DNA of 64,000 nucleotides from a virus: positions 1-64,000 of IMG/VR virus record IMGVR_UViG_3300036820_000010; one strand, written 5' to 3'. A program made the position numbers and the translations under genes. How positions within the stretch are numbered: the stretch's first letter is position 1; every line of letters begins with the position of its first letter. Below, in pieces: positions 3,367 through 57,482 of this stretch. The notes under the pieces are model-generated. The model saw nothing but the letters and a program-made list of their open reading frames with translations. It searched no databases and was not told the DNA's origin.

Positions 3367-3606
3367 TTAGTAGACCCTCCTCTTGTACTCTCTCCAGGCC
3401 TTGCGACACCTCTCGCAGTGACAGCGATGGTTGGTGTATCCCCCGATCGTTCCGTGATAGTCGAATGGTTGTCGAGGATGCAGTTTGCCTGCCTTGCGTC
3501 GCCACCCTCGCATGTAGGTAGCGTGAGCTGTCTTGCAGGGAGAGCATTTGCACCCGCACATGTAGCGGGCGTTAGTTCCATGGTCTGCAGTCGAGGGTCT
3601 AGGCAT
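3367..3606 (-). CDS. Small Cys-rich protein with two HGT..Y..CxCxxC repeats
   Basis: HGTNARYMCGCKCSPC and HGTIGGYTNHRCHCERC. Confidence 0.65.
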   Translation of the reverse strand: MPRPSTADHGTNARYMCGCKCSPCKTAHATYMRGWRRKAGKLHPRQPFDYHGTIGGYTNHRCHCERCRKAWREYKRRVY

Positions 3607-4022
3607 TAGATCTTCTTGCCTTGGCTCGAGTTCAACTCCCTCTGCTTCTCGAGCATGCGTTCCTTCTCGTCGTTGAGTTTCTGTTCATCGATCCGGAAGT
3701 ATTCGGCCAGGATACTAGTCGTCTTGAGGAGAGACTCGAAGTAGTAAGGCCCGTAGACCGTCGAGGGCGGTTGCGGAATCCCAAGGGCTATCTCGACACC
3801 CAGTTGCTCAGTCGACTTCTCAGGAGTGCACTTTGGGCAAGTCTTTGCCGTCAGAGGCAGAAGAGTCTCGCAACCAGAACAGGTATTCGACCACTCACAG
3901 ATGGAGTACCTGGACTTCAACCACTCTAAAAAATCTCCAGCCTCGTTGGGTAGACTCCCCAACGCCTTGAGTTTAGCGTGTTCCGGGTACTCTTCCTTGG
4001 TGTCCGTCTTGGTGTTTCCCAT
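3606..4022 (-). CDS. Zinc-ribbon-containing hypothetical protein, leaderless
   Basis: CSGC..CPKC; ATG 6 nt after TATACT (4034-4029). Confidence 0.7.
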   Translation of the reverse strand: MGNTKTDTKEEYPEHAKLKALGSLPNEAGDFLEWLKSRYSICEWSNTCSGCETLLPLTAKTCPKCTPEKSTEQLGVEIALGIPQPPSTVYGPYYFESLLKTTSILAEYFRIDEQKLNDEKERMLEKQRELNSSQGKKI

Positions 4023-4087
4023 GAATATAGTATAACACAGGAAAAAGTTCTTCGCGTGATCGAGTCTTTTCCTGTATAATCATAGAC
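4016..4087. promoter_or_regulatory. Divergent leaderless promoters
   Basis: Minus strand TGtTATACT-6 nt-ATG(4022); plus strand TATAAT(4075-4080)-7 nt-ATG(4088). Confidence 0.65.
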
Positions 4088-4510
4088 ATGGGAACACCTA
4101 CCCAACTTGGAAAGGCAGACTTGATCCCGGACTACGTCCTGCGCCGGATTAGACCCGACAACAGGGTCCAAGCCTTGATCGAGTTCATGGCCAAGGCCGC
4201 CTGGAGGCCGAAATCCGGACCTATCGTCTTCCCATCCAAGATCGCGGCCATCAAGGCAGTCAGGGAATGGACGGGCAAGAACGATACCACAGGTGCTTAC
4301 GATCTCAAGGAGGCGAGAAACTTCGTCGAGAAGCATTGGGCACGAGTCGAGGCAGGTTTGGGTCGAGATGTCCATACCGGGTCTTCCTGGAGTCTACCCG
4401 GAAGATCTCATCTGGGAGTACAGAGAAAACCAGGACAAATCCTCAGGCTTGGTCTTGAGTACTCCCTTCGAGGGGCCTCACTTGACCATATCGGAGAGGA
4501 TTCCTGCTGA
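4088..4510 (+). CDS. IPDY-motif protein with a ribosomal L7/L12 C-terminal-like segment
   Basis: LIPDYVLRR near the N-terminus; KIAAIKAVREWTG..DLKEARNFVE. Confidence 0.6.
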   Translation: MGTPTQLGKADLIPDYVLRRIRPDNRVQALIEFMAKAAWRPKSGPIVFPSKIAAIKAVREWTGKNDTTGAYDLKEARNFVEKHWARVEAGLGRDVHTGSSWSLPGRSHLGVQRKPGQILRLGLEYSLRGASLDHIGEDSC

Positions 4511-4610
4511 CCTAGTCATCAAGATGAAAGAAGACCTTCGATTCGCTAAATTGGCCTTGATGCAGAGGGTACGCCTTCTCTTGTATCGGTTGACCTATGT
4601 TGACCTATGA
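4368..4610 (+). CDS. Hypothetical protein (MSIPG start)
   Basis: Stop overlaps the next gene (ATGA at 4607); overlaps the previous ORF by ~140 nt. Confidence 0.45.
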   Translation: MSIPGLPGVYPEDLIWEYRENQDKSSGLVLSTPFEGPHLTISERIPADLVIKMKEDLRFAKLALMQRVRLLLYRLTYVDL

Positions 4611-4858
4611 TCCCTGATTACATCCTCAACGCCAACCAAGACCAAGACCAAGTCCCGAATCCCCCAGAAACCGAAGAAGGCGACTGGTGGGCCTGGTACC
4701 GCAGGTCCCGCCATACTAGGGTATGGACCCTCATCGGGGTCTACTCTTCTGAGTTAGTAGCTCAGGGAGCAGTCAAAACTTACCTCGACACCACCAGGGA
4801 CCCTTCCCAGTACTCTATCCGCGTCCTCAAGGCGGGAGTCAGGCCCAATGATTCCTGA
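4607..4858 (+). CDS. IPDY-motif small protein
   Basis: Starts MIPDYILN. Confidence 0.75.
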   Translation: MIPDYILNANQDQDQVPNPPETEEGDWWAWYRRSRHTRVWTLIGVYSSELVAQGAVKTYLDTTRDPSQYSIRVLKAGVRPNDS

Positions 4859-5171
4859 CTACATCCTCAACTCGAGTTCTAAGAATACCCCCTGCACGGA
4901 CTCACATCACTTAGAGAATCACCCGGACACTGTCTTCGTGGGTGCCAGACTCCACTCATTCCAGGCCCAATTTCCTGAAGTCGACCATGCCGTCCTATTC
5001 ACCTGCTCTAACTGCAAGTACGCGAGACGAATAATCTACAACCACCTGAGAGAAACCCTCTACTGCGAGATCTACACTTGGCATTTGGGGCCCAAACCCA
5101 GATGGGTTTGGGCAGTCGTCAAAGATACACTCCACATCTCAAAGGCCAAGGCAGTGAGGATCCCTGAGTAA
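4848..5171 (+). CDS. IPDY-motif Cys/His protein, paralog of 5176-5502
   Basis: MIPDYILN; EVDHAVLFTCSNCKY. Confidence 0.75.
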   Translation: MIPDYILNSSSKNTPCTDSHHLENHPDTVFVGARLHSFQAQFPEVDHAVLFTCSNCKYARRIIYNHLRETLYCEIYTWHLGPKPRWVWAVVKDTLHISKAKAVRIPE

Positions 5172-5175
5172 AACT

Positions 5176-5502
5176 ATGATTCCTGACTACTTGTTCCACC
5201 CCGGAGAAGAAAGCAAGGCTTGCACCATCCATTCTTTAGTCTGTCAACCTGACGCTCTACTCACTGGAAGACTCCTGCACAATCCCGAACAGAATTCTCC
5301 CCCGCATGAGGTAGATCATGCTGTCTTGTTCACTTGTCCAAACTGTAAGTACATGAAACGAGTAGTCTTTAATCCTGACGCCCAACCCCTCTACGTCGAG
5401 GAATTCACCTGGTCATTCAAACAACTCAAGTGGATCTGGGTCGTAAGCCTAGACCTCATCGCCCTGAGCAGAGAAGAGTTTAGGGGAGGGGAAAGTCCAT
5501 GA
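5176..5502 (+). CDS. IPDY-motif Cys/His protein, paralog of 4848-5171
   Basis: MIPDYLFH; EVDHAVLFTCPNCKY. Confidence 0.75.
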   Translation: MIPDYLFHPGEESKACTIHSLVCQPDALLTGRLLHNPEQNSPPHEVDHAVLFTCPNCKYMKRVVFNPDAQPLYVEEFTWSFKQLKWIWVVSLDLIALSREEFRGGESP

Positions 5503-5810
5503 CCATCCCTGGGTATGTCTTCAAGCACCAGTGTAGGTGTGCTGGCTGTGACCCAAGACTAGATCCCAATGGACCCAGGCTTGGCCCAAGGCACTTTGCG
5601 GTTCGCTTCGGGGATCATATTCTCCAGGCTTGTTTAGACGGTGAGCCGATCGTGAACTGCTATGAGTTGCACACTGACTTAGAAGTGGGTTGGCTGATCA
5701 ACCTTCCTGCTCACCGCTGTTCCAATTGTGGTCTGGGTGCGTGTTGCAGCATGGTTCAAGGCAAATTCAGTGTGGAGGCCGGGATTCCTGGTTCAGGGGT
5801 CAAGGCATGA
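5499..5810 (+). CDS. IPxY-motif Cys-rich protein
   Basis: MTIPGYVFK; CRCAGC, CSNC; ATGA overlaps at both ends. Confidence 0.7.
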   Translation: MTIPGYVFKHQCRCAGCDPRLDPNGPRLGPRHFAVRFGDHILQACLDGEPIVNCYELHTDLEVGWLINLPAHRCSNCGLGACCSMVQGKFSVEAGIPGSGVKA

Positions 5811-6310
5811 TTCCTGACTACCTGTTCAAACCTTTAGAACCCGAGGAACTTCTAGGCACTGAGTACGTCACTGAAGGCAAGACCAGAAGTCCCCAAAGGA
5901 TAAAGAAGGTAATCAATTTAGTCCCAGAACTTGGCGCTCGCCATCGAGTTGAGACAGCAGTGAGGATATTCTATTTACCTCTAGATATCAGTTGGGCAGT
6001 AGACGCCTTACTTGACTTCTCCAAAACCTGTATGTCCGAGGCAGTAGGAGTTCTGGCCAGGACTAACTTAGACCCAAGTGAGAAAGACAGGATCTATGAC
6101 CTGGCTGCAGTCGAGTACAAGGCAGCCAAGGACCTAGTTAAGGAACTAGAAACTTCAGGTTGGCCAACCAATCAGGCCGCGGACCTGCTCCTGACCCAGA
6201 TCATGCTCCGACGACTCTTGACTTGGATCCTAGATCTGATCGCGCAGACCCAAATCAGAATCCATGATGCCCACATGCCCCAGGAGGAAGCTGACAATGG
6301 AGATTCCTGA
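5807..6310 (+). CDS. IPDY-motif helical protein
   Basis: MIPDYLFK at an ATGA overlap. Confidence 0.75.
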   Translation: MIPDYLFKPLEPEELLGTEYVTEGKTRSPQRIKKVINLVPELGARHRVETAVRIFYLPLDISWAVDALLDFSKTCMSEAVGVLARTNLDPSEKDRIYDLAAVEYKAAKDLVKELETSGWPTNQAADLLLTQIMLRRLLTWILDLIAQTQIRIHDAHMPQEEADNGDS

Positions 6311-6482
6311 CTACATCTTCAAGGAATTTCTGAGAGTAGACCCTTGTACTCACCCCTTTAGAAGAACAGTAGGAGATCCTAGGAGTATTGCTCCCTGGAA
6401 GTTCCTCGTCTGTTCTCAGTGCGGGGCCCGAGTTCACTGGAGTGAGAAGGGAAAGAAGTGGGTAAAGGTCAGAAGTCTGTAA
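6297..6482 (+). CDS. IPDY-motif zinc-finger-like protein
   Basis: MEIPDYIFK; CTH..CSQC; SD AGGAGG. Confidence 0.75.
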   Translation: MEIPDYIFKEFLRVDPCTHPFRRTVGDPRSIAPWKFLVCSQCGARVHWSEKGKKWVKVRSL

Positions 6483-6745
6483 CGGTTCCTGACTATGTCT
6501 TCTGGACTAGTCTTCCCTGTGATCAGCACATCTTGGAGCAAGGCCTGACTCTAGGGATCACAGAGGTTGATTTCCTATACCTGATGGAACCGAAACTCAA
6601 AACCTTAAGGCCAACCCACTTCAAGACATCTAGGTGTACGCAGTGCGACCACAGGTTCTGGGAGTTCCTGAGGTTTGGACAAGTAATCGTCGTCCTAGAA
6701 GAAAACTGTGAAAACTTTGAACTCTTGTGGTCCATTGATTCCTGA
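6458..6745 (+). CDS. VPDY-motif zinc-finger-like protein (start uncertain)
   Basis: TVPDYVFW; CDQH..CTQC. Confidence 0.6.
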   Translation: MGKGQKSVTVPDYVFWTSLPCDQHILEQGLTLGITEVDFLYLMEPKLKTLRPTHFKTSRCTQCDHRFWEFLRFGQVIVVLEENCENFELLWSIDS

Positions 6746-6769
6746 AGTAATTCGTACTATAATCATTGC

Positions 6770-6934
6770 ATGGTACCCGAGTACGTCTTGAAGCGCAAGA
6801 AGTGCGCCCACGACGCAGTCGACTTCGTCCCTCTAACTCCGCAGTCACCTGCGCTAGATGGACAGTACCGCTGCCGGGACTGTAAAGAACTCATGGTCAT
6901 GGAACCCTCGGGCAAGTGGACCCCATATGAGTGA
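6770..6934 (+). CDS. VPEY-motif zinc-finger-like protein (54 aa, not in ORF track), leaderless
   Basis: MVPEYVLKRKKCAH..CRDC..; TATAAT at 6758-6763, 6 nt before the ATG. Confidence 0.7.
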   Translation: MVPEYVLKRKKCAHDAVDFVPLTPQSPALDGQYRCRDCKELMVMEPSGKWTPYE

Positions 6935-7145
6935 CATCCCCGACTACATCTTCCGCAAGAAGACTATTCCCCCTGACGAGTGCTCCCACCTGCGTGTCGA
7001 GCAGGAAGTAGTCAAGGCCCAAAACGGAGAGAAAAGGGTGGAGTTCATCTGCCAGGGTTGTGGGCGCCGGGTCAAACCCGGGGGATGGGTTTACCGGGAA
7101 TCTTCTGGAGTCCAGGACTACTCAAACAGGTGGGTAATCTACTGA
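6927..7145 (+). CDS. IPDY-motif zinc-finger-like protein
   Basis: MSDIPDYIFRK; CSH..CQGC. Confidence 0.75.
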   Translation: MSDIPDYIFRKKTIPPDECSHLRVEQEVVKAQNGEKRVEFICQGCGRRVKPGGWVYRESSGVQDYSNRWVIY

Positions 7146-7396
7146 TGATTCCTGACTACCTATTCAAGAAAAGGAAGGAGGAGTCCCCTCCCGACTCCTG
7201 CCCTCATCGGAGGGTCAAGAAAGTAATCTTTGTACTACCTCCTGACAAGTCAGGCAAAGAATGTGCTGCCTATGAGTACAAATGCGAGTACTGCGGGAAC
7301 TTCCTGAAGCCTAGTCTCACCGAGAACGGTTGGGAGGCCTACGATCCCGGGTATCCCCGAGGTTCTAAAGAAGTCAAAGTCGGGTTCATCCCATGA
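7145..7396 (+). CDS. IPDY-motif zinc-finger-like protein
   Basis: MIPDYLFKK; CPH..CEYC; TGATG overlap. Confidence 0.75.
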   Translation: MIPDYLFKKRKEESPPDSCPHRRVKKVIFVLPPDKSGKECAAYEYKCEYCGNFLKPSLTENGWEAYDPGYPRGSKEVKVGFIP

Positions 7397-7506
7397 TCTG
7401 GACCTTCGGGACAGGAGTCTATAACGGATTCTTAGACTCTGCTTTAGGCCTAAGCCTAGTTCTCTTAGGAGTACGTACCTGGAACAAGAAAAGAAAGAAG
7501 AAATGA
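7393..7506 (+). CDS. Small membrane protein (37 aa) with a basic tail
   Basis: MIWTFGTGVYNGFLDSALGLSLVLLGVRTWNKKRKKK; ATGA overlaps at both ends. Confidence 0.55.
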   Translation: MIWTFGTGVYNGFLDSALGLSLVLLGVRTWNKKRKKK

Positions 7507-7631
7507 TCCCTGACTACATTCTCAGAAATTCTAGGATCCCGGAATGTCTCCACCCCAAACGAGCAGTTCAAAGATACGATGGGTACTTTTTTTTGTTCCG
7601 TAAGGTAGTAAAAGGTCAACAATACCCATGA
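7503..7631 (+). CDS. IPDY-motif small protein (42 aa, not in ORF track)
   Basis: MIPDYILRNSRIPECLH.. Confidence 0.65.
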   Translation: MIPDYILRNSRIPECLHPKRAVQRYDGYFFLFRKVVKGQQYP

Positions 7632-7640
7632 AGACTCTCA

Positions 7641-7826
7641 ATGGATGAGAGCGTAATTCCCGACTACCTGTTCACGAACCGCAAACCCGAAGAATGGGTA
7701 GAAGACGGGCAGGTGTACTGTGCCCATACCCATAGATACAGGATTGGGGAAAGAATGCTCTGTCTACAATGCGGAGAATCTTTACACAAAGACGGGAAGA
7801 GGTGGAAAGCAGCCGGTGATCCCTGA
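7641..7826 (+). CDS. IPDY-motif zinc-finger-like protein
   Basis: VIPDYLFT; CAH..CLQC. Confidence 0.7.
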   Translation: MDESVIPDYLFTNRKPEEWVEDGQVYCAHTHRYRIGERMLCLQCGESLHKDGKRWKAAGDP

Positions 7827-8130
7827 CTATGTCTTCAAGAGGAGAGACCCAGACCAGGAGACTTTAGTCCAGTGGACAAGAGGTGTGCCTCATGGGAGTA
7901 CTATCTGGGAAGTCCTGCCTCCCCCACTGAACTGCCCAGAGTTCTGGGCAATTAGTGCTAAGTGGAAGAACTCAGAGGGAAACAACTCTGAGTACACTCG
8001 ATATATCGACTATCCCTACTTGTTTGGGTGGCAAAACCTCACCGATCTCCTGGGTGAGATCTCTTCTGAGGTTGCTAGAAATCAGCAGATCTCGGAACAC
8101 ACTCCAGTCTGGCCCCTCAACCCGAGTTAA
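7816..8130 (+). CDS. IPDY-motif protein
   Basis: GTG start giving (M)IPDYVFKRR. Confidence 0.7.
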   Translation: MIPDYVFKRRDPDQETLVQWTRGVPHGSTIWEVLPPPLNCPEFWAISAKWKNSEGNNSEYTRYIDYPYLFGWQNLTDLLGEISSEVARNQQISEHTPVWPLNPS

Positions 8131-8139
8131 AGGAGTTTT

Positions 8140-8712
8140 TTGCCTATGCCAGAATCTGAGTTTTTACTCCAGGATGAGTACGTCATACTCAAGAGGAGTA
8201 GGCACTGGGGACAGTTCGGAAGATGGTTCCGACGCCCAGTCTTCCTGATCATTCTAGTCTTAGTTCTGATCACCACTGAACACATCTGGGTTACCTACCT
8301 AACCTGGATAGGCTTCCTGTTCGGAACTGACTTCTTCTCAACCCAGAGGTTCATCCTCTACCTGGTCGGTATCGCACTACTTCTCTTGGCCTTTTCTGGG
8401 TTCTGGATGCTAGAGATATACCTCTACGGGTCGACCACGATCACAGTCACCAACCTGCGCGTGATCAAGGGAGTGACCAAGTGGCCTTACAGGAACAGCA
8501 TCTCCTTGCGCATGATGATGATCATCGATGTCCGCGTGAGTCAAACTGCGATAGGCAGATTGCTAGGTTACGGACGCATCGTCATCAACCCGGGAGACGG
8601 AGTCCTAGACCTAGAGTTCATGCCTAACCCAGACGAGATGTACCGTCAGATACTGGCTCATGCCAAGATGATTCCGAGTCTCAACCCCAACCTAGGCCTG
8701 GTCAAACCTTAG
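8140..8712 (+). CDS. Membrane protein with a bacterial PH (bPH_2-like) domain
   Basis: Two TM helices, then TVTNLRVI..G..IIDVRVSQTAIGRLLGYGRI. Confidence 0.7.
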   Translation: MPMPESEFLLQDEYVILKRSRHWGQFGRWFRRPVFLIILVLVLITTEHIWVTYLTWIGFLFGTDFFSTQRFILYLVGIALLLLAFSGFWMLEIYLYGSTTITVTNLRVIKGVTKWPYRNSISLRMMMIIDVRVSQTAIGRLLGYGRIVINPGDGVLDLEFMPNPDEMYRQILAHAKMIPSLNPNLGLVKP

Positions 8713-12324: not shown

Positions 12325-12351
12325 AAACCTGATAAATTGAGGAGACAGACG

Positions 12352-14001
12352 ATGGGACGGTACACTGCCCATGTAGGGCACCTCGAGGTTATCAGGGGTG
12401 TAGTCAAGGCAACTCAGGTAGCCAAGGTCAACGGGAAGTACCAGTTCTCTGGGGTAGCGACTTCAATCGGAAACACCGATCGCATGGGCAGGGTGTTCTT
12501 GCCTGGAGCCTTCGCCTCACTCCCACCCCAAGTCCCACTACTCGCCTACCACGACGACACTCGCCCGATCGGAATCTCTGCCCTCAAGAAGCAGGGGGAC
12601 CAGGTTCTGCACTCCTCGACACTCAGTAACGGCCCGGCAGCCGCTGAACTCGAGGAACTCATCCATGATGGAGCAGTCCCTGCTACTTCGATCGGATGGT
12701 TGTCTGACCAGCGCTACAACGGGTCGGGAGCACTCGAGCGTGCAGATCCTGACTTCGCTGAACAGTGCTGGGCGATGGGTATCGAGAAGGCAGAAGACAT
12801 CACCTACTTCGGGAAGGGTGAGATCCTAGAGAACTCGATCACCCCGATTCCGGCTAACCCGCAGGCACTGATCTCAGTTGCCTCTCTTCTAGGCACTGAC
12901 CGGGGGTACATCGAGTCGATGCGCGAAGTCGCGAGGGAGTCTGATCCCCACTTCTTCTTCATGTCGAGCGATGAAGTCGCTCCCCCAGGATCTGACCTAG
13001 GCAGTACTGCCTACGAGCCTGAGGCCTACTCCAAGGGACCGGGCGAGAACGTCAAGTGCCCGCAGTGCCAGAAGTACAACGAACCCGATGCTTCTTTCTG
13101 CGACCAGTGTGGTCTGAAGTTGGTCGGGCGGGACGACGTCCAAACTTCTGTTGTCGAGGGAATGGACATCTCTGACCGGTCACTCTTGGATCTGGTCGGG
13201 GGAGCAGCGACCATCCTCGCTGATGTCATGCGGATCCGCGAGGACGCGTCGATCCCTGACTACGTGACTCGACAGCAGATGATGGCCGAGTCGGTCGCCC
13301 AACTGGGTGACCTCGCTGCCGTCTGGTCGAGCGCCTACGTCAACAACCTCCCTGACAGCGCTTTCGCCTACATCACGCCTGGGGGAAAGGCAGACTCTTC
13401 TGGAAAGACCACTCCCCGCTCGTTGCGGCACTTCCCCCACCACGATGACACAGGGAAACCCGATGAGGCGCATGTGCGCAACGCACTCGCCCGCATCCCC
13501 CAGTCGAACGTCCCGGAATCGGCCAAGGCATCTGCTCTCGCCCATATCGAGAAGCACGCGAAGGCGATGGGCATCGACGTGTCTGACAAGAAGGCAGCCG
13601 CTGCCCAGCCTGATGCTCCTGGCAATACCGACGATGACGCACCAGTCAACGCAGGTCCGATGCCGACCAAGCCTGCGACCGCGGTCAAGCATCTGATGAC
13701 CGCGAAACCTAGTGGTCATGGGATGGCTCGCGCTGACATCCCTGACAACCCAGTCAAGGCTCACAACGCGATGCACGGTGAAGACGGATCGAAGGAGAAG
13801 GACGGACACGTCCATTCCAAGGCCCCGGCTGCCTCAGATATCGATCCCGACCTCGTTCTTTCAGAACTCGAGGCACTCACCCAGCGAGGCCCAGTCGGGA
13901 ACCAACCATCAGTATGGTCAGAGGTCCTAGCTGCTGAGCCCAGGTTCAAGAATGTCAGGTCGGGTGTCCAGCCTGAGTGGGGTCTCGTCGACCTAGGCTA
14001 A
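12352..14001 (+). CDS. Prohead protease (HK97-type) with C-terminal extensions
   Basis: FSGVATSIGNTDRMG..LLAYHD..RPIG..TSIGW..ENSITPIPANPQA; then CPQC..CDQC and an LPDSAFAY domain. Confidence 0.8.
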   Translation: MGRYTAHVGHLEVIRGVVKATQVAKVNGKYQFSGVATSIGNTDRMGRVFLPGAFASLPPQVPLLAYHDDTRPIGISALKKQGDQVLHSSTLSNGPAAAELEELIHDGAVPATSIGWLSDQRYNGSGALERADPDFAEQCWAMGIEKAEDITYFGKGEILENSITPIPANPQALISVASLLGTDRGYIESMREVARESDPHFFFMSSDEVAPPGSDLGSTAYEPEAYSKGPGENVKCPQCQKYNEPDASFCDQCGLKLVGRDDVQTSVVEGMDISDRSLLDLVGGAATILADVMRIREDASIPDYVTRQQMMAESVAQLGDLAAVWSSAYVNNLPDSAFAYITPGGKADSSGKTTPRSLRHFPHHDDTGKPDEAHVRNALARIPQSNVPESAKASALAHIEKHAKAMGIDVSDKKAAAAQPDAPGNTDDDAPVNAGPMPTKPATAVKHLMTAKPSGHGMARADIPDNPVKAHNAMHGEDGSKEKDGHVHSKAPAASDIDPDLVLSELEALTQRGPVGNQPSVWSEVLAAEPRFKNVRSGVQPEWGLVDLG

Positions 14002-19490: not shown

Positions 19491-19669
19491 ATCGAGCCGT
19501 CCTGTACAAAACCTACGGGTGGTCTCCTGATACTGTCAACGAACTCGAACTTGAGGAAGCGGATAACCTAGTCCTCCACCTAGAATACATCCAAAAGATC
19601 GAGGATAGGGAACGCAAGAGGGCAGAAGCCAAAGGTCCCAAACGCCCGCCTAACTCAAGGAGGATGTAG
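19418..19669 (+). CDS. -1 frameshift extension of the tail chaperone (GT)
   Basis: C_CCT_TTC heptamer at 19418-19424; -1 frame open to TAG 19667-19669 and encodes YGWSPDTVNEL. Confidence 0.75.
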   Translation, partial: PFHERLWAALSSGRTEDEEVLRFLNRAVLYKTYGWSPDTVNELELEEADNLVLHLEYIQKIEDRERKRAEAKGPKRPPNSRRM

Positions 19670-20055
19670 TGCCAGAGTACGTTGACATGGAAGGCTTCGA
19701 CGAGGCCAATGAAGCCCTTGCTTCTCTGCCTGACCTCCTCCGCGAAGCCATCTCTGATTCAGCGGGCGAGGGTACTTCTATCCTGTTGAACGCACTAGAG
19801 TCCCAGACCCCAGTCAGATCAGGCCGCTTGATCCGAGGGTGGAGAACTTCTGTCTCGACATCAGGGGACGAGGCGACAGGCAAAGTCTTCAACGAGACTC
19901 CCTATGGTCCGTATGTCGAGGCTGGCCGACATCCCCACCACCGCATGCGGTCAAACCCGTTCACCAAGAGAGGAATCTCTCTAGCCTCGGGTACCGTCCT
20001 GTCTCTCGCTGAGGCTAACGTCCAGGCAGTCGTCGATACCCTGAACCGAGAGTAA
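19669..20055 (+). CDS. HK97 gp10-like neck/tail completion protein
   Basis: TPVRSGRL..YGPYVEAG..MRSNPF. Confidence 0.8.
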   Translation: MPEYVDMEGFDEANEALASLPDLLREAISDSAGEGTSILLNALESQTPVRSGRLIRGWRTSVSTSGDEATGKVFNETPYGPYVEAGRHPHHRMRSNPFTKRGISLASGTVLSLAEANVQAVVDTLNRE

Positions 20056-31317: not shown

Positions 31318-31566
31318 GTGCCTGACTACTCCCCCTATATCGCAGCCGTGATCGGATTCTTGAATCTGGTTCTCGCTGCCCTCGCTGCCTTCGGGGTCAT
31401 GACTTTGACTCCGACCGAGCAGACAGCACTCTCGGCCATCTTCGCCTCACTCGGATCAGGAGCACTCCTGTTCATCCCCGTCTTCATCCACGTCAAGGCG
31501 GTAACCATGATCAAGGCGAAGAACGGAGTCTACCAGATGCCCAAGTCTTCAACCTCAGGCAAGTAG
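31318..31566 (+). CDS. Putative holin
   Basis: Two TM helices, LTPTEQTAL, basic C-terminus, after the endolysin. Confidence 0.6.
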   Translation: MPDYSPYIAAVIGFLNLVLAALAAFGVMTLTPTEQTALSAIFASLGSGALLFIPVFIHVKAVTMIKAKNGVYQMPKSSTSGK

Positions 31567-36483: not shown

Positions 36484-36753
36484 TCAGATTAAAGGCCTCA
36501 GAGATATCTCTAGGATTTCTCGGTCAAACTCCATGTGCAGGACCTTCCCCGGGTAGTCGATGTAGACAGTCTTGAGTTCAGATCCTTCCGGTACCCCTTC
36601 GATAACTTGGGCACTGATCACACTGCCTTGAGTCAACATCCCAACCAAGAAATCGATCGAGACCAGGACTTCATTAGAACGGGGACCCTTAAAACCTGCG
36701 AACGGGGCGGTCTTGGGTTTCGGTCTCCTGACGATGTAGTCCGGAACTCGCAC
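36484..36753 (-). CDS. VPDY-motif protein
   Basis: MRVPDYIVRR; SD AGGAGG. Confidence 0.7.
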   Translation of the reverse strand: MRVPDYIVRRPKPKTAPFAGFKGPRSNEVLVSIDFLVGMLTQGSVISAQVIEGVPEGSELKTVYIDYPGKVLHMEFDREILEISLRPLI

Positions 36754-49253: not shown

Positions 49254-50600
49254 TCACCTCCGAATCATCTCCTTCTGGACGGGCCCGACCACTTGCCCGA
49301 AAGTCGGAGTACGACGCGCACCGTGAATCTCCTCGGTCGTCAACCACAGGGTCGGAATCTTCGGGTCAACTGCTTGAGAAACACTCCACTCCATGTCAGT
49401 GACGATGATGAGCCACTCGTAGTTACCTTCCTTGGCTATCTCGGCGATCGAGGGAGACAGGTCAGTTCCACCACGCCCTTGCCACTCTAGGGGAATCTGC
49501 ATCGGGAAGTCAAAACGACTGAAGGTACGATCAGCACCCACGATCGTCCGCGTATCCGCCTGGCGCATGCGCACCTTGCAGTCAGGAAAGATCTGAAGCG
49601 CCCTCTCGATGAAGGTAATAGCCACCTGGCAGTCAGAAGAGTCCATCGACCCTGACGTGTCCACCAAGACCATACCCTCGCCCAATTCTCTAGCCCGAAG
49701 AGACGGAAGTATCACGTCACTCCGGTAGACACTCCTCCGGTTAGGCCGAGAGTACGAGGTGCGGGTCGGCGCGTACCGAGTCATGAACTGCTTCAAGAGA
49801 GACTCAACATCGATCTTCGCCTCGGTCTCGACCCTCGAAACTTCCTTAACCCAACCCGGAAGGTTCCCGCAGTTCTTCGAGGTCATCACCCCAGTCGCGA
49901 CCCGGTCTTCCCACTCCTCCTTGGCCTGGGCGACGTTCTTCTTCTTCTGCGCGTCAGATCGATTGTCCTCGCCTGACTGAGACGACTCTGAACCCGGAGT
50001 AGTACTTTGGGCCTGACTCGTCTGCCCCTGCCTGTCACCCTCTCCCTCGGCCTTGCCTGAGATCGAAGGGTGCGGCATGACTTCTCCGACCGAGACAGGA
50101 GTACCCTGGCCCTGGCCTTGGCCTTGACCTTGACCTTCCTGGCCTTTCATCTCCTCGGCTATCTTCTGCAAGAGATCCTTCAACTGCTCGTAGTACCACT
50201 CGGCCGAACGACCTGCCTCGACATCCCGGAACCTACCTACCTCGGGTACACAACCCAACCGCATCACGATTCCGGTCGGGTCGCAGTACTCCTTGATGTA
50301 GTAGTTCAGGGCGAGGTCAGCGGCCAGGTTCCACTCCTGGGCCGGGATCTGCCCGAACCTGAAGTGATGACCTAGGAACAGGTGACCCGCCTCATGCAGG
50401 ATGATCTCCTGGACATCTCGAATCGACATCTTGTCGATGAAATCCGAGTTGTAGTACAGGTGAACTCCATCGGTCGCAGCCGTCGTGATCACGAGACTCC
50501 TGATCTCGACAACTTGCAACGCTGAGATCATGGCCGCGAAGTACGGGTGATGGTCGTAGACGTGATCGAAGCCTCTACGGATTTTATCTCGTGCCTTCAT
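49254..50600 (-). CDS. Metallopeptidase-like (HExxH) plus VWA domain protein (DUF2201-like), leaderless
   Basis: TAATDG..YN..HEAGH..WNLAAD..N; GQ-repeat linker; RPNRR; VDTSGSM; GRGGTD. Confidence 0.85.
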   Translation of the reverse strand: MKARDKIRRGFDHVYDHHPYFAAMISALQVVEIRSLVITTAATDGVHLYYNSDFIDKMSIRDVQEIILHEAGHLFLGHHFRFGQIPAQEWNLAADLALNYYIKEYCDPTGIVMRLGCVPEVGRFRDVEAGRSAEWYYEQLKDLLQKIAEEMKGQEGQGQGQGQGQGTPVSVGEVMPHPSISGKAEGEGDRQGQTSQAQSTTPGSESSQSGEDNRSDAQKKKNVAQAKEEWEDRVATGVMTSKNCGNLPGWVKEVSRVETEAKIDVESLLKQFMTRYAPTRTSYSRPNRRSVYRSDVILPSLRARELGEGMVLVDTSGSMDSSDCQVAITFIERALQIFPDCKVRMRQADTRTIVGADRTFSRFDFPMQIPLEWQGRGGTDLSPSIAEIAKEGNYEWLIIVTDMEWSVSQAVDPKIPTLWLTTEEIHGARRTPTFGQVVGPVQKEMIRR

Positions 50601-51341: not shown

Positions 51342-52208
51342 TTAGGCCTCGCTCTTGTCCCACCCACTGATGTCGTCGAGGATAGATCCTGCCTTGGACT
51401 GGAGACGCTCCTTGCCTCCCTCCTCCGACCGAACCTCCTCGGCCGTCATCCCGCCGAGTTCCTTCGAGACCTTCTGGATCAGAGCGGTGATCTTGGGGTC
51501 GTTGGTCAGGTTCAGGGCGGGCGCCTGCTCCAGAAGAGCGTTCAGGGACTCAAGAGTCGTCTTGTGAACCCTCTCCCCCTTCGCGATCTTCGAGACAGCG
51601 TCGACCAGACGGTGGACGATGTCAGACGTCGCCTGCGCGATCTGCTTCTGGGTGTTGGCCACGACCCGGTCGCGAATCTCGTCCTGCACTTCCTGGGACA
51701 CGTGACGTAGACGAAAGTCCTTGGACGGAAGAGGGGTCTCTTCGGTCTCGAAGGCAAAAGCGCTATCCATCTTCTCGACACTCGGGAAGGGAACATCTTC
51801 AGCGACCGAGGGTCCGACCCTCTCAAGGTAGTTCTGGACCAGCTCGTCCCGCTGCGAGATGACCTTCTGCGCCTCGTCCAGATACTCCTGTTCGTACTTG
51901 CGCATCTCCGACATGAACTCTTGGTAAGAAGTAATCGGGAGGATCCGGAAGTCCTCGGACCAGGGGAGAGTCTTCTCCTTGAAGTAAGCCTTGGCCGCAG
52001 TGTAGACCCGGTTCAAGGGCCCGAGAACCGTCCACTGGATTACCTGGACGTACCCCTTGACCGAGGCCTTGTCCGCCTCCAACGACTCCGCCGCCGCCGA
52101 GGTGACCGTCTTGCTCGAGGTCAGGACTCCAAGTTGCGTGATCCTGAGGCGAACCAGGATCGCATCCCGAGACAGATCGAACGAAGAAGGCGAGTTCTGC
52201 ACGTACAT
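51342..52208 (-). CDS. Conserved helical phage protein (DUF3150-like)
   Basis: KTLPW..FRILP..LNLTNDP; own promoter TTGCAG-17-TATAAT (52271-52243). Confidence 0.6.
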   Translation of the reverse strand: MYVQNSPSSFDLSRDAILVRLRITQLGVLTSSKTVTSAAAESLEADKASVKGYVQVIQWTVLGPLNRVYTAAKAYFKEKTLPWSEDFRILPITSYQEFMSEMRKYEQEYLDEAQKVISQRDELVQNYLERVGPSVAEDVPFPSVEKMDSAFAFETEETPLPSKDFRLRHVSQEVQDEIRDRVVANTQKQIAQATSDIVHRLVDAVSKIAKGERVHKTTLESLNALLEQAPALNLTNDPKITALIQKVSKELGGMTAEEVRSEEGGKERLQSKAGSILDDISGWDKSEA

Positions 52209-52304
52209 GACTCCTTTTCTAGAATTCCGCTTAACATCTATTATTATAAGGCACTCAGGAAGAAACTGCAAGCAAAATCCTGACAAATTTAAGGAGAAAA
52301 TAAA

Positions 52305-53862: not shown

Positions 53863-54143
53863 CAGGACCTCCCGCTGTCAAGACTTGGAATATCAGGATG
53901 TCTTGAGAAGAACTCCTCGGAAGAGATCCTCAACAAGTGGAAGGAGACTACATCCTCGAGAAGGGAATAGTACCTGAGCATCCATTCTTCTTGCCCGACA
54001 GCGATACCTTCCTCAACACCCTCCCGGTACCTCATCTCCTGGACTGTCTCGGGCCTCCTGATGACCAACTCATAATAGACCTCAGGGTCAACCTCAACTA
54101 CCCTGCCTGAGGAAAGATGCACAAAGTCTTTGTCCAGGGTCAT
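53862..54143 (-). CDS. Hypothetical protein
   Basis: ATGA overlap (MTLDKDF start). Confidence 0.55.
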   Translation of the reverse strand: MTLDKDFVHLSSGRVVEVDPEVYYELVIRRPETVQEMRYREGVEEGIAVGQEEWMLRYYSLLEDVVSFHLLRISSEEFFSRHPDIPSLDSGRS

Positions 54144-55138: not shown

Positions 55139-55139
55139 G

Positions 55140-56252
55140 TCAGAACTGCTCAACCTTCTTCTGTCCAAAGTCGACCGACACCCTAGATGCAGAAGGCCTG
55201 TTGTTCTTGGTCTTCCACAAGTGGTACTGAGGAGCAGTCAGAGTGCGCGGGATGTCTTCGACCAGACGGCGGACCAAGTAGGTCGAGGGCTCTTCTGGCC
55301 AGCGCATCCCGTAGACCAGAATTGCGTTAACTGCGTCCTCGTTACCCTTAGCGTAGTTGACCAGAGACAGAGTCAGAGAGTACAGGAGGGAAGGTTCCTT
55401 CGGGATCTTGACCGACTCAGGGGAGTCCAGGATCTCTTGAATCTGAGGGACCTCCTCGAACATCTTCTTGTACTGTAGAAACTCGGTCGCCGCACCCTCA
55501 CCGATGCAACCCGCCATCAGCGCCTTGGTGATGTCCTTGGTCTCGAACTTACCTTCTAAGGAGAGTTCCTCGGCTACCCCCAGGATCCTATCCGCGTACT
55601 CGAAGGACCGTGGAGTAGCGTAGGCCATGTCGGTAACGTCTGGCTTCTCCTTCGCTGCCCCGTTCGCCCAGACCTCCTGACGAAAGGCAGCAAACCCCTG
55701 CAGTAAAGGAGAAACATCGCCCAACTTCTGGGCCCAAGCAAGAAAAGAGCGAAGAGCATCCTGGGACCCAATCTCGATGTAGAGGTGACACATGCGGTTG
55801 GCCGCCGCCTTCGACAGAGGAGTAGTCCCGATGTCAGAAGTCGAGTTCCCAGCCAAGATCACGAAGGCGTTCTTGGAGAGTTCGTGCCCATTCAACTTCC
55901 GGTCCAGGATCAACTGCAGGGCAGTATTCTGAACGTCGAGGCGAGCCCGGTCGAACTCATCGAGGAACACGATCGCCTTCTCGTCAGTATCGAAGGGGAG
56001 CGTCTGAGGCATGAGGTACGTGAGGACCTTGTGCCCATCCTCCGCATCCTGGGGATAGGGAATCCCGCCTAAGTCAGAAGGTTCCTTGTCCGAGAGTCGG
56101 TAGTCGTAGATCTTGTAGTCCAGACGCTCCGCGATCTGCCTGACTACCGAGGACTTCCCGATCCCAACCGGACCCCACAGGGCAACCGGGACCTGAGCGA
56201 CGAAACAAGTCACCGTCGCACGCTCCGCCTGCTCCAAGGTGATGAACTGCAT
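55140..56252 (-). CDS. MoxR-like AAA+ ATPase
   Basis: GPVGIGKS, SDLGGIP, FLDEFDRA, AGN, NRM, ATPRS; promoter TTGCGT-17-TATAAT (56339-56311). Confidence 0.88.
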   Translation of the reverse strand: MQFITLEQAERATVTCFVAQVPVALWGPVGIGKSSVVRQIAERLDYKIYDYRLSDKEPSDLGGIPYPQDAEDGHKVLTYLMPQTLPFDTDEKAIVFLDEFDRARLDVQNTALQLILDRKLNGHELSKNAFVILAGNSTSDIGTTPLSKAAANRMCHLYIEIGSQDALRSFLAWAQKLGDVSPLLQGFAAFRQEVWANGAAKEKPDVTDMAYATPRSFEYADRILGVAEELSLEGKFETKDITKALMAGCIGEGAATEFLQYKKMFEEVPQIQEILDSPESVKIPKEPSLLYSLTLSLVNYAKGNEDAVNAILVYGMRWPEEPSTYLVRRLVEDIPRTLTAPQYHLWKTKNNRPSASRVSVDFGQKKVEQF

Positions 56253-56373
56253 ATTTGAACTCCTGCCCTGGACTCGAGCGGGCTTCTCGCCGGGTTCCTT
56301 GATATCTATTATTATAGGCACTCAGACACAGGAACGCAAGGTCCTAGGGTAGAAATTTTCAGGAAAACCTAGA

Positions 56374-57007: not shown

Positions 57008-57225
57008 CCTTGCTCCTTCGATGCGTTAATCCGATTCTTAACTGCTGCCGGAGGATGCCCGATATGGTACTTGTGGCAAAAACTGCAGGAATAAGGAATC
57101 AGACCTCCTCCCTGCCCGTTGTTCCTGATCGACTCTATGGCTGCTAGGGCTTCTTCATGGGTGTCGAACTGCCTCTTGCCTTGACACGCAGACCGACGGA
57201 GTCTTCGCTTCGATGACATATTCAC
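57004..57225 (-). CDS. Small zinc-finger-like protein
   Basis: CQGKRQF..YSCSFC..YHIGH. Confidence 0.65.
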   Translation of the reverse strand: MNMSSKRRLRRSACQGKRQFDTHEEALAAIESIRNNGQGGGLIPYSCSFCHKYHIGHPPAAVKNRINASKEQG

Positions 57226-57482
57226 TTTACTCCCGGCTTATTGATGACTTTTGAACTCAAAGTCCCCTGGATCGAAAACCTCCTGAGTTGGGAACTTTCA
57301 CCCCGAGGAACAGGAGAAGGCGAACCCGAGTAGAAGAACTCTATCTCAGCATCAACTGACTCGAGTTCAACCCAACTCCCATTCCCGAAGAAAACTTGGA
57401 CTTTAGTCAGAGGGTTCGAGAGTTCACTGAAGTCGTCCAGGGGTTCCTCCTGCCTGACCACATAGTCAGGAACAGAAATCAT
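57222..57482 (-). CDS. VPDY-motif protein
   Basis: MISVPDYVVRQ; ATGA overlap. Confidence 0.65.
   Translation of the reverse strand: MISVPDYVVRQEEPLDDFSELSNPLTKVQVFFGNGSWVELESVDAEIEFFYSGSPSPVPRGESSQLRRFSIQGTLSSKVINKPGVK

What the first reader, a model, noticed from the sequence alone, without database searches (positions are those of the whole stretch)
4088..8130. Cluster of 14 mostly unrelated small proteins sharing an N-terminal [IV]PDY[ILV][LF] tag
Seen: ORFs at 4088, 4607, 4848, 5176, 5499, 5807, 6297, 6458, 6770, 6927, 7145, 7503, 7641 and 7816 carry IPDYIL/IPDYLF/IPDYIF/VPDYVF/VPEYVL/IPGYVF at or near the start, often followed by K/R. The bodies differ, although many have CxH..CxxC and two are clear paralogs. 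Codons vary synonymously (ATT/ATC, CCT/CCC/CCG, GAC/GAT, TAC/TAT), so the peptide rather than the DNA is conserved. Genes are mostly coupled by overlapping stop/start. Inference: a shared docking or sorting peptide (capsid-targeting signal for injected effectors, adaptor tag recruiting one host protease or scaffold, or assembly motif) fused to a library of variable target-binding domains such as anti-defence proteins. I know of no named family like this. The motif loosely resembles the FtsZ C-terminal IPxFLR peptide.
Basis: partly seen in the sequence, partly recalled or inferred. Interest (0 to 1): 0.82.

Follow-up and report, generated by a model that had tools for sequence, protein, structure and literature searches.

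The report
Shared N-terminal tag on phage proteins
In an uncultured soil phage, 14 neighbouring small genes (and probably two more elsewhere) all begin with the same short peptide (Ile/Val-Pro-Asp-Tyr plus two hydrophobic residues), kept by selection on the protein; it most likely works as an address label that plugs different small proteins into one still-unidentified partner.

Summary
In the whole 84.6-kb virus record, [IV]P[DEG]Y[ILV][LF] occurs 14 times in six frames. All 14 are at the starts of 14 consecutive + strand ORFs (4088-8130); shuffles give 0.1. Conservation is at the peptide level: codon positions 1-2 are fixed and position 3 varies. "Mostly unrelated" overstates it. About ten of the 14 form one fast-diverging family of small CxH...CxxC zinc-ribbon proteins, found nowhere else among 1.84 billion representative proteins. 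Four cluster proteins and two tagged ORFs elsewhere have other bodies. The shared module is about 13 residues: tag, then K/R, then Pro, then acidic residues. [IV]P[DE]Y is also about 15-fold enriched, in frame, in proteins outside the cluster. A second soil metagenome holds a close variant with all tags intact. Candidates are the phage's own MoxR AAA+ / metallopeptidase-vWA pair (present in this genome, rare in phages), the procapsid (as with the T4 capsid targeting sequence), or a host hub. The main rival is an ordinary paralogue family whose N-terminus is structural. This scan has noted similar shared end-tags, with other peptides, on other phage DNA; this peptide is new to it.

The parts
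4040..4087 (+). Leaderless promoter of the cluster: TATAAT at 4076-4081, then 6 nt, then ATG 4088 (ATGGGAA module). It faces a twin module for the minus-strand gene that starts at 4022.
   Evidence: eight such TATAAT-N-ATGGGAA modules in the genome
4088..4510 (+). T01, 140 aa, tag IPDYVL at residues 13-18. Helical body with a sub-threshold L7/L12 C-terminal-domain-like stretch. A soil variant ends it after about 95 aa.
   Evidence: orthologue P0016: first 28 residues identical, 85% overall
4607..4858 (+). T02, 83 aa, MIPDYIL, no Cys motif
4848..5171 (+). T03, 107 aa, MIPDYIL, C..H...CSNC; paralogue of T04
   Evidence: E 4e-22, 41% over 82 aa
5176..5502 (+). T04, 108 aa, MIPDYLF, CxxH...CPNC
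5499..5810 (+). T05, 103 aa, MTIPGYVF (Gly in place of Asp), 9 Cys
5807..6310 (+). T06, 167 aa, MIPDYLF, acidic body with no Cys motif and no relatives
6297..6482 (+). T07, 61 aa, MEIPDYIF, CTH...CSQC zinc ribbon
6458..6745 (+). T08, 95 aa, tag VPDYVF at residues 10-15, CxxH...CTQC
   Evidence: the variant SNP at 6496 is synonymous within the tag
6735..6763 (+). Internal promoter TTGATT-17-TATAAT, 6 nt before the ATG of T09 (leaderless). Its -35 region (TTGATTCCTGA) looks like a relic tag start.
6770..6934 (+). T09, 54 aa, MVPEYVL, CAH...CRDC
6927..7145 (+). T10, 72 aa, MSDIPDYIF, CSH...CQGC
   Evidence: orthologue P0004: first 14 residues identical
7145..7396 (+). T11, 83 aa, MIPDYLF, CPH...CEYC. 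In the AF2 model the beta core (residues 24-78) has block-mean pLDDT 70-80 up to about residue 70, the tag is at about 54, and the linker 8-17 is below 50.
   Evidence: (P0003, 87%)
7393..7506 (+). Untagged 37-aa ORF with a hydrophobic stretch, inside the cluster
7503..7631 (+). T12, 42 aa, MIPDYIL, CLH only: a truncated or decayed member of the family
7641..7826 (+). T13, 61 aa, tag at residues 6-11, CAH...CLQC
7816..8130 (+). T14, 104 aa, GTG start, IPDYVF, Trp-rich body without Cys motif. In the single-sequence AF2 model the tag region is a strand (4-9), at low confidence.
8140..8712 (+). Protein with hydrophobic stretches and a bacterial PH domain (bPH_2, just below cut-off), next gene in the operon
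36484..36753 (-). Possible tagged ORF outside the cluster: GTG start after AAGGAGG, MRVPDYIVRR. The public gene call starts later (51 aa), so the tagged start is unconfirmed.
57222..57482 (-). Tagged ORF outside the cluster: MISVPDYVVRQ, with its ATG overlapping the upstream stop; about 0.9 kb upstream of the MoxR gene
13252..13272 (+). Internal IPDYVTR at residue 306 of the prohead protease-scaffold fusion (12337-14001)
   Evidence: this part is not conserved in the two relatives found
55140..56321 (-). MoxR-type AAA+ ATPase: candidate reader component
   Evidence: AAA_5 3e-10, bpMoxR 1.5e-8, phrog_1297 1.9e-71
49254..50600 (-). Metallopeptidase-vWA protein (DUF2201_N + DUF2201): candidate reader component

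Best explanation
The first roughly 13 residues of these proteins are a short linear address or docking motif: [IV]-P-[DE]-Y, two hydrophobic residues, then K/R, a Pro about five residues on, then acidic residues. The motif is kept by selection on the peptide while the rest of each protein evolves fast.

Shown. (a) The motif is restricted to gene starts. (b) The constraint is at the peptide level. (c) It sits on one expanded family of about 10 small Cys-His-Cys-Cys zinc ribbons and on at least 4-6 proteins with other bodies. (d) Host-type leaderless promoters precede T01 and T09. (e) The tag is intact in a second soil population.

Inferred. The invariant Pro and Tyr, the acidic residue and the two hydrophobic residues fit one pocket of a single shared partner. 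The variable bodies then bring different targets or activities to that partner, or are delivered, processed or timed by it.

Favoured reader (probability about 0.2-0.25, not shown). This is the phage's own MoxR AAA+ ATPase (55140-56321) with the metallopeptidase-vWA protein (49254-50600). The tag's Asp/Glu would complete the vWA metal site, and the fused peptidase might trim the N-terminal tag.

Other readers. The inside of the procapsid, as for the T4 capsid targeting sequence (about 0.15). A host hub such as a sliding clamp, a division-protein partner or an AAA+ protease adaptor (about 0.15).
For: Specificity. There are 14 of 14 hits at ORF starts in one 4-kb operon against 0.1 expected.

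Peptide-level constraint. Codon positions 1-2 are fixed and position 3 is free. Outside the cluster the DNA pattern is not enriched (14 found, about 10 expected), yet half of those copies are in frame 0 of real genes. [IV]P[DE]Y occurs 7 times in proteins outside the cluster against 0.47 expected, and 0 of 1000 shuffles reach that.

Different bodies. T01, T02, T06 and T14 show no similarity to each other or to the zinc family beyond the tag. They still share the extended module: K/R at +1 in 11 of 16, Pro at +5 in 7 of 16, acidic residues at +6/+7.

Orthologues in other soil contigs keep the N-terminus while the bodies differ by 10-15%. P0016 has its first 28 residues identical, P0004 its first 14, P0003 its first 10. 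Of 23 listed SNPs in tagged genes, 13 are non-synonymous. The only one inside a tag is synonymous.

Structure. In the AF2 model of T11 the tag is separated from the zinc-ribbon core by a low-confidence linker and is not confidently packed.

Candidate reader. The MoxR ATPase and the DUF2201 metallopeptidase-vWA are both encoded. Only 238 of 50,697 phage records match the latter. Iyer et al. proposed this pair as a chaperone/co-chaperone with peptidolytic processing in virion assembly (PMC7824862).

Precedent. T-even internal proteins are diverse defence proteins that share only an N-terminal capsid targeting sequence (PMC3012670).
Against: No binding, localisation or processing has been tested and no reader is shown.

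About ten of the 16 carriers are paralogues, so common descent alone explains much of the sharing.

ATT (6 of 12 Ile codons against 16% in the genome) and CCT (10 of 14 Pro codons against 36%) are over-used in the tags. That fits recent duplication.

The single-sequence AF2 model of T14 makes the tag a beta-strand (residues 4-9) that could belong to the fold. Both models are of low confidence.

T05 has Gly where the acidic residue should be, which fits a metal-site ligand poorly.

The MoxR and vWA genes lie 41-48 kb from the cluster.

No relatives exist for a co-variation test: only one lineage in two soil metagenomes carries the tag.

The tagged start of the ORF at 36753 is not the public gene call.
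Confidence: 0.5

Rival explanations
1. Ordinary lineage-specific paralogue family. One small zinc-ribbon gene duplicated in tandem many times. The N-terminal peptide is a structural element of the fold, for example an edge beta-strand packing on the ribbon, and is conserved for folding. The 'other' bodies are members that diverged or were partly replaced and kept the ancestral 5' end.
For: About ten of the 14 share IPDYxF...CxH...CxxCG...W, with invariant P3, Y5, C19, H21, C47, C50 and W63 in the core alignment. Three paralogue pairs are detectable. The genes are tandem and translationally coupled. Codon bias in the tag fits recent common ancestry. In the T14 model the tag is a strand next to a beta-hairpin. 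T12 is a decayed member.
Against: T01, T02, T06, T14 and the ORFs at 57482 and 36753 have no Cys/His motif and no detectable similarity, yet keep the whole 13-residue module. In the T11 model the tag is detached from the core (pLDDT 54, linker below 50). The tag's distance from the first Cys varies from 3 to 20 residues, which is odd for a packed strand. The motif is also enriched in unrelated larger proteins.
Confidence: 0.27
2. N-terminal degron or timer, or a co-translational signal. The tag makes all these host-promoter-driven small proteins short-lived through a host or phage protease, or it tunes early elongation or initiation of the coupled genes.
For: The motif is strictly N-terminal (residues 2-13). 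Host-type leaderless promoters and tight coupling point to one co-regulated set. Aromatic/hydrophobic residues followed by basic residues are typical of chaperone and protease recognition peptides (general knowledge, not tested here). The phage encodes a metallopeptidase-vWA and an AAA+ ATPase.
Against: The tag can sit up to 12 residues from the start (T01, T08), so a free N-terminus is not required. In-frame internal copies exist in large proteins. No known bacterial degron has this sequence, and the hexapeptides appear in no paper of the library. Nothing bears on half-life.
Confidence: 0.12
3. A DNA- or RNA-level element: a recombination or cassette boundary, a binding site or a translation-initiation box that happens to be translated.
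For: A 25-nt direct repeat family with 12 copies coincides with the tags. ATT and CCT are over-used. A deletion in the second soil population ends exactly at the ATG of T02. The -35 of the T09 promoter resembles a tag start.
Against: Information content has a strict period of three, with the third positions free. There is no conservation upstream or downstream. The pattern is never found on the other strand. Outside the cluster the DNA pattern is at chance level overall but biased to frame 0. The tag position relative to the start codon varies.
Confidence: 0.04

Closest known systems
Capsid targeting sequence (CTS) of phage T4 internal proteins IPI-III and Alt (PMC3012670)
   Same: A short N-terminal peptide is the only thing shared by a diverse, fast-evolving set of small phage proteins. 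The T4 set includes anti-restriction proteins. The gene cluster here lies next to the head module, and a copy of the motif lies in the protease-scaffold protein.
   Different: There is no sequence similarity. No conserved protease cleavage site follows the tag. This phage has an HK97-type protease-scaffold fusion and a siphovirus-like tail module, not a T4-type core. The cluster has host-type leaderless promoters like the other small-gene cassettes. Presence in the virion is untested.
MoxR AAA+ ATPase with metallopeptidase-vWA co-chaperone of 'group 2.2' jumbo phages (Iyer et al. 2021, PMC7824862)
   Same: This genome encodes both parts: AAA_5/bpMoxR, and DUF2201_N + DUF2201. vWA metal sites typically bind an acidic residue of a client, and the tag has a nearly invariant Asp/Glu. 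One tagged ORF lies about 0.9 kb from the MoxR gene.
   Different: No client or recognition peptide has been described for this pair. The genome is 84.6 kb with a siphovirus-like tail module, not a jumbo phage. The pair is not next to the cluster. T05 lacks the acidic residue. The link is an inference.
Hub-docking peptides: T4 gp45 clamp-binding tails, the bacterial beta-clamp motif QL[SD]LF, and the FtsZ C-terminal peptide (D-I-P-x-F-L-R/K)
   Same: These are short acidic-aromatic-aliphatic peptides at protein ends, followed by basic residues, shared by otherwise unrelated proteins that meet at one hub.
   Different: The tag lacks the Gln of the clamp motif. It is N-terminal where the FtsZ and T4 tails are C-terminal. 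It has an extra hydrophobic residue compared with the FtsZ peptide. The host is unknown and no phage clamp was found. These resemblances are recalled, not tested.
Small zinc-ribbon proteins (e.g. Pfam Zn_ribbon_8)
   Same: There are two metal-binding knuckles (CxH and CxxC), 15-30 residues apart, on predicted beta-hairpins in proteins of 54-108 aa.
   Different: Only a sub-threshold Pfam hit (E 0.013). The ligand set is Cys-His-Cys-Cys. There are no relatives outside this lineage among 1.84 billion representatives, and no fold match (best Z 3.7).

Membership tests
T4-type capsid targeting sequence | Short peptide at the extreme N-terminus of otherwise unrelated proteins | tested here: met
   The tag lies at residues 2-13 of 14-16 ORFs.
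T4-type capsid targeting sequence | Prohead-protease cleavage site (Leu/Ile-x-Glu) closing the peptide | tested here: not met
   No conserved site follows the tag. Residues +1 to +14 show only K/R, Pro and acidic trends. [IV]-P-[DE] itself resembles such a site, but cutting there would remove only 3-4 residues in most members.
T4-type capsid targeting sequence | T4-like scaffolding core and gp21-type protease | tested here: not met
   The protease is a protease-scaffold fusion matching phrog_80/3270. The capsid protein is distantly like those of Mycobacterium, Nocardia and Propionibacterium phages.
T4-type capsid targeting sequence | Carriers are found inside the virion | not testable with these tools
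   Needs virion mass spectrometry; the phage is uncultured.
Client tag of a MoxR AAA+ / metallopeptidase-vWA pair (proposed, not an established family) | Both genes are present in the same genome | tested here: met
   A match to the vWA-peptidase occurs in only 238 of 50,697 phage records.
Client tag of a MoxR AAA+ / metallopeptidase-vWA pair (proposed, not an established family) | Tag and pair co-occur and co-vary across related genomes | not testable with these tools
   No related genome with either feature was found.
Client tag of a MoxR AAA+ / metallopeptidase-vWA pair (proposed, not an established family) | Invariant acidic residue for the vWA metal site | tested here: inconclusive
   Asp or Glu in 15 of 16 carriers; T05 has Gly.
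Zinc ribbon | Four metal ligands in two knuckles on beta-hairpins | tested here: met
   C19, H21, C47 and C50 are invariant in the core alignment. The AF2 model has strands 24-31, 40-47, 53-56 and 63-66. Metal binding itself is not tested.
Zinc ribbon | Match to a curated zinc-ribbon model above its cut-off | tested here: not met
   Zn_ribbon_8 scores 16 bits against a cut-off of 34.4.
Bacterial beta-clamp binding motif | Gln at position 1 of Q-L-[SD]-L-F | tested here: not met
   No Gln precedes the tag in any of the 16 carriers.
FtsZ C-terminal peptide mimic | C-terminal position and a D-I-P-x-F-L-[RK] pattern | tested here: not met
   The tag is N-terminal. The pattern matches only I-P-x-aromatic-aliphatic, with an extra hydrophobic residue before the K/R.
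RiPP precursor peptides | Long conserved leader and adjacent modifying enzymes | tested here: not met
   The shared part is about 13 residues. The operon neighbours are a bPH protein and a small-molecule-type methyltransferase, and no RiPP enzyme family matched.

The most novel reading that the evidence does not exclude
The IPDY peptide is the N-terminal version of an undescribed class of phage tag-and-reader systems. A phage-encoded MoxR AAA+ / metallopeptidase-vWA machine recognises a short acidic-aromatic peptide on a changing library of small effector proteins, many of them zinc ribbons. It then loads, processes or activates them.
Probability: 0.2. Interest if true: 0.85.

Novelty: new variant of a known kind. 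Interest (0 to 1): 0.62.

Why it matters
Roughly one gene in eight of this phage starts with the same peptide. That is a strong hint that many 'hypothetical' small phage proteins are organised around a common partner.

It would also give a function to the phage MoxR/peptidase-vWA pair, for which no client is known, or reveal a second kind of capsid-loading signal outside the T4 group.

The tag could serve as a portable label for delivering or co-locating proteins in phage-infected cells.

If it is only a structural strand of a paralogue family, the finding reduces to a lineage-specific expansion of an orphan zinc-ribbon protein.

Tried and rejected
Family searches: Pfam and PHROGs on all tagged proteins found nothing above cut-off.

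Homologue searches:
- Profile search of 1.84 billion representatives. Beyond the phage's own proteins and one orthologue, the eight further hits were longer proteins, seven of them 408-1877 aa, with several matched stretches each. I read these as spurious.
- Word-indexed searches of 5.8 billion proteins with the zinc family, T01 and the ORF at 36753 found only close orthologues on 1-2.3 kb soil contigs.

Searches for related loci:
- Two IMG/VR DNA scans for the tag gave 47 and 22 single chance hits and no multi-tag locus.
The T11 query gave nothing. The portal query gave two high-GC relatives without the region upstream of the portal and without the motif.
- The genome-contig scan with the portal gave nothing.
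- IMG/VR scans with the vWA-peptidase and the MoxR protein gave nothing.
- blastn of the cluster against phage records gave no match.

Structure and feature searches: fold searches of the T11 and T14 models gave nothing clear. The ESM Atlas gave no usable lead for T06 or T01.

Literature: none of the six hexapeptide variants searched occurs in any paper of the library.

- One alignment was too diverse for a locus scan, and one pattern had too few fixed bases.
I repeated the analysis from genome coordinates.
- No RNA holder is listed for the cluster, so nothing can be said on expression.

Rejected readings:
- Sec, Tat or lipoprotein signal: no hydrophobic core and no lipobox.
- RiPP leader.
- Polyprotein junctions: the frames differ and stops are present.
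- A vWA role for the gene next to the MoxR gene (54140-55168): it has no Pfam match and no visible metal-site motif.

Full report
**What the DNA is.** The window is the first 64 kb of an 84,580-bp linear IMG/VR virus record, estimated 88% complete.
- It encodes a portal, a prohead protease-scaffold fusion, a major capsid protein, a tape-measure protein, a family A DNA polymerase and helicases.
- The terminase large subunit lies at 72.7-75.4 kb.
- The capsid protein is only about 24% identical to those of Mycobacterium, Nocardia and Propionibacterium phages.
- No phage record matches the cluster at the DNA level.
- The same sequence occurs in two soil metagenomes from two studies. One is probably the source. 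The other holds a close variant.

**The observation.** The regex [IV]P[DEG]Y[ILVM][LFIM] hits 14 times in six frames.
- All 14 hits are on the + strand between 4124 and 7819. There are no others in the window or in the whole record, where shuffles give 0.1.
- Each hit lies at residues 2-13 of one of 14 consecutive ORFs, here called T01-T14, spanning 4088-8130. In eight of them the tag follows Met directly.
- The public gene calls have the same starts for T01, T07, T09 and T10.
- Most ORFs overlap the next by 1-25 nt.
- A leaderless promoter (TATAAT, a few bases, then ATGGGAA) precedes T01. It belongs to a set of eight such modules in the genome. A second promoter precedes T09.
- The operon continues with a bPH-domain protein and a methyltransferase.

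**Peptide or DNA?** The evidence favours the peptide.
- In the 14 tags, codon positions 1 and 2 carry mostly 2.0 bits and position 3 carries 0.6-1.4 bits. Flanks are not conserved apart from the start codon and a weak K/R codon after the tag.
- The pattern never occurs on the other strand.
- Outside the cluster the DNA pattern CCNGAYTAY is at chance level (14 found, about 10 expected). Half of those copies lie in frame 0 of real genes.
- ATT and CCT are over-used in the tags relative to the genome. I read this as a trace of recent duplication. It is the only point in favour of a DNA-level reading.
- The one direct-repeat family that spans the cluster (12 copies of 25 nt) is the tag itself.

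**Are the bodies unrelated?** Only in part.
- With the tag removed, three pairs are still detectable: T03/T04 (E 4e-22), T10/T11 (3e-7) and T07/T13 (5e-5).
- Alignments show a common plan in about ten members: IPDYxF, a basic/Pro linker, CxH, 15-30 residues, CxxCG, then Trp. In the five compact members P3, Y5, C19, H21, C47, C50 and W63 are invariant.
- This is a Cys-His-Cys-Cys zinc-ribbon layout. The AF2 model of T11 gives a beta core at residues 24-78, with block-mean pLDDT 70-80 up to about residue 70.
- T12 is a truncated member.
- T01, T02, T06 and T14 have no Cys/His motif and no detectable similarity to anything, each other included.
- T01 has a sub-threshold stretch like the ribosomal L7/L12 C-terminal domain.

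**The tag is longer than six residues and is not confined to the cluster.**
- Anchoring all carriers on the tag shows K/R at +1 in 11 of 16, Pro at +5 in 7 of 16, and acidic residues at +6/+7. This holds for zinc and non-zinc bodies alike.
- Following an earlier first-stage note (e1-6106840), I checked the rest of the genome. An ORF at 57482 (minus strand) starts MISVPDYVVRQ, with its ATG overlapping the upstream stop. An ORF at 36753 (minus strand) starts MRVPDYIVRR after a strong AAGGAGG. The public gene call for the second one starts later, so its tagged start is unconfirmed.
- In proteins outside the cluster, [IV]P[DE]Y occurs 7 times against 0.47 expected, and 0 of 1000 shuffles reach that count.
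- Those copies include residue 306 of the protease-scaffold fusion, residue 221 of an AAA_24 ATPase, and the extreme N-termini of an HK97-gp10-like tail protein and of an 82-aa protein.

**Conservation in the second population.**
- Orthologues on short soil contigs keep the N-terminus unchanged while the bodies differ by 10-15%. P0016 (T01) has its first 28 residues identical, P0004 (T10) its first 14 and P0003 (T11) its first 10.
- Of 23 listed SNPs in tagged genes, 13 are non-synonymous, so these genes evolve fast. The only SNP inside a tag (6496) is synonymous.
- The numbers are too small for a formal test.
- A 239-bp deletion in that population ends T01 after about 95 residues, exactly at the ATG of T02.

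**How isolated the system is.**
- A profile of the zinc family found only the phage's own proteins and one orthologue among 1.84 billion representatives. The other hits were longer proteins with several matched stretches each, which I read as spurious.
- Two DNA scans of IMG/VR for the tag gave only single chance hits.
- Scans with the portal, the T11 family, the vWA-peptidase and the MoxR protein found no related genome that could be compared.
- No co-variation test is therefore possible.

**What could read the tag.** None of the following readers is shown.
- *MoxR/vWA pair.* Prompted by earlier notes of this scan that link shared end-tags in other phages to a MoxR AAA+ / metallopeptidase-vWA pair (e1-6058358, e1-6058371; unchecked AI notes), I looked for that pair here and found it.
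  - A MoxR-type ATPase lies at 55140-56321 (AAA_5, bpMoxR, phrog_1297 E 2e-71).
  - A DUF2201_N metallopeptidase fused to a DUF2201 vWA-like domain lies at 49254-50600.
  - Only 238 of 50,697 phage records match the latter, mostly N4-like and jumbo phages. Its presence in an 84.6-kb genome with a siphovirus-like tail module is therefore not trivial.
  - Iyer et al. described this pair and proposed a role in virion assembly with peptidolytic processing (PMC7824862).
  - A nearly invariant Asp/Glu flanked by Pro and Tyr is a plausible ligand for a vWA metal site.
  - Against this: T05 has Gly at that position, the pair lies 41-48 kb away, and I could test neither binding nor co-variation.
- *Procapsid.* T-even internal proteins share only an N-terminal capsid targeting sequence (PMC3012670). 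The motif copy in the protease-scaffold protein and the cluster's place beside the head genes fit that reading. The lack of a cleavage site, the host-type promoters and the non-T4 head module do not.
- *Host hubs.* A clamp, FtsZ partners or protease adaptors remain possible. Their defining features are not met (no Gln; N-terminal rather than C-terminal position).

**The rival that matters.** The tag may simply be a structural strand of one diverging family. The single-sequence AF2 model of T14 makes residues 4-9 a strand. The T11 model leaves the tag detached behind a low-confidence linker. Both models are weak (mean pLDDT 62-67). The variable spacing between tag and first Cys (3-20 residues) and the presence of the full module on unrelated bodies argue against this rival, but they do not exclude it.

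**Verdict.**
It is a peptide-level, N-terminal, shared module on several kinds of body, but most carriers are paralogues and no function is shown.
- My estimates are: address or docking tag 0.5 (MoxR/vWA reader 0.2-0.25, procapsid 0.15, host hub 0.15); structural element of a paralogue family 0.27; degron or co-translational signal 0.12; DNA-level element 0.04.
- In kind it resembles the T4 capsid targeting sequence and the shared end-tags this scan has noted on other phage DNA. The peptide, the zinc-ribbon family and the kind of phage are new.

Noticed in passing
window 4022(-), 4088(+), 1028(-); genome 78007(+), 80688(+), 81095(+), 81763(+), 83129(-): Eight leaderless promoter-start modules (TATAAT-like hexamer, a few bases, then ATGGGAA). 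All the genes concerned begin Met-Gly-Thr/Asn. This shared N-terminus is imposed by the DNA module, in contrast to the IPDY tag.
   Followed up: partly
window 49254-50600(-) and 55140-56321(-): A metallopeptidase-vWA protein (DUF2201_N + DUF2201) and a MoxR-type AAA+ ATPase, with a DUF3150 gene (51342-52286) between them. The pair is rare in phage records (238 of 50,697) and is otherwise seen mostly in N4-like and jumbo phages.
   Followed up: partly
genome 72704-75418(-) (L081:8704-11418): The terminase large subunit is 904 aa. It carries a LAGLIDADG_3 domain at residues 322-377, just upstream of the TerL ATPase match (470-593): a probable intein or homing-endonuclease insertion.
   Followed up: no
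window 6735-6745: The -35 region of the promoter in front of T09 reads TTGATTCCTGA, nearly the same as the ATGATTCCTGA that opens many tagged genes. It may be a relic tag start turned into a promoter.
   Followed up: no
window 4368-4606: A second soil population carries a 239-bp deletion that shortens T01 to about 95-99 aa and ends exactly at the ATG of T02. It also has in-frame indels at 4231 (+9), 4635 (-6) and 7100 (+3).
   Followed up: partly
window 3367-3606(-) and 3606-4022(-): The genes transcribed divergently from the cluster are also small Cys-rich proteins. One has two HGT..Y..C.C..C repeats. The other has a CxxC...CxxC double zinc-ribbon-like stretch (PF12773 E 0.005).
   Followed up: no
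window 4238-4357 (T01 residues 50-90): A sub-threshold match to the ribosomal protein L7/L12 C-terminal domain (PF00542, E 0.004, 17.9 bits).
   Followed up: no
window 19669-20055(+) and 31318-31566(+): Two proteins outside the cluster start (GTG)Pro-Glu/Asp-Tyr: an HK97-gp10-like tail component (MPEYVDM) and an 82-aa protein (MPDYSPYI). These are partial tag-like N-termini of uncertain meaning.
   Followed up: partly
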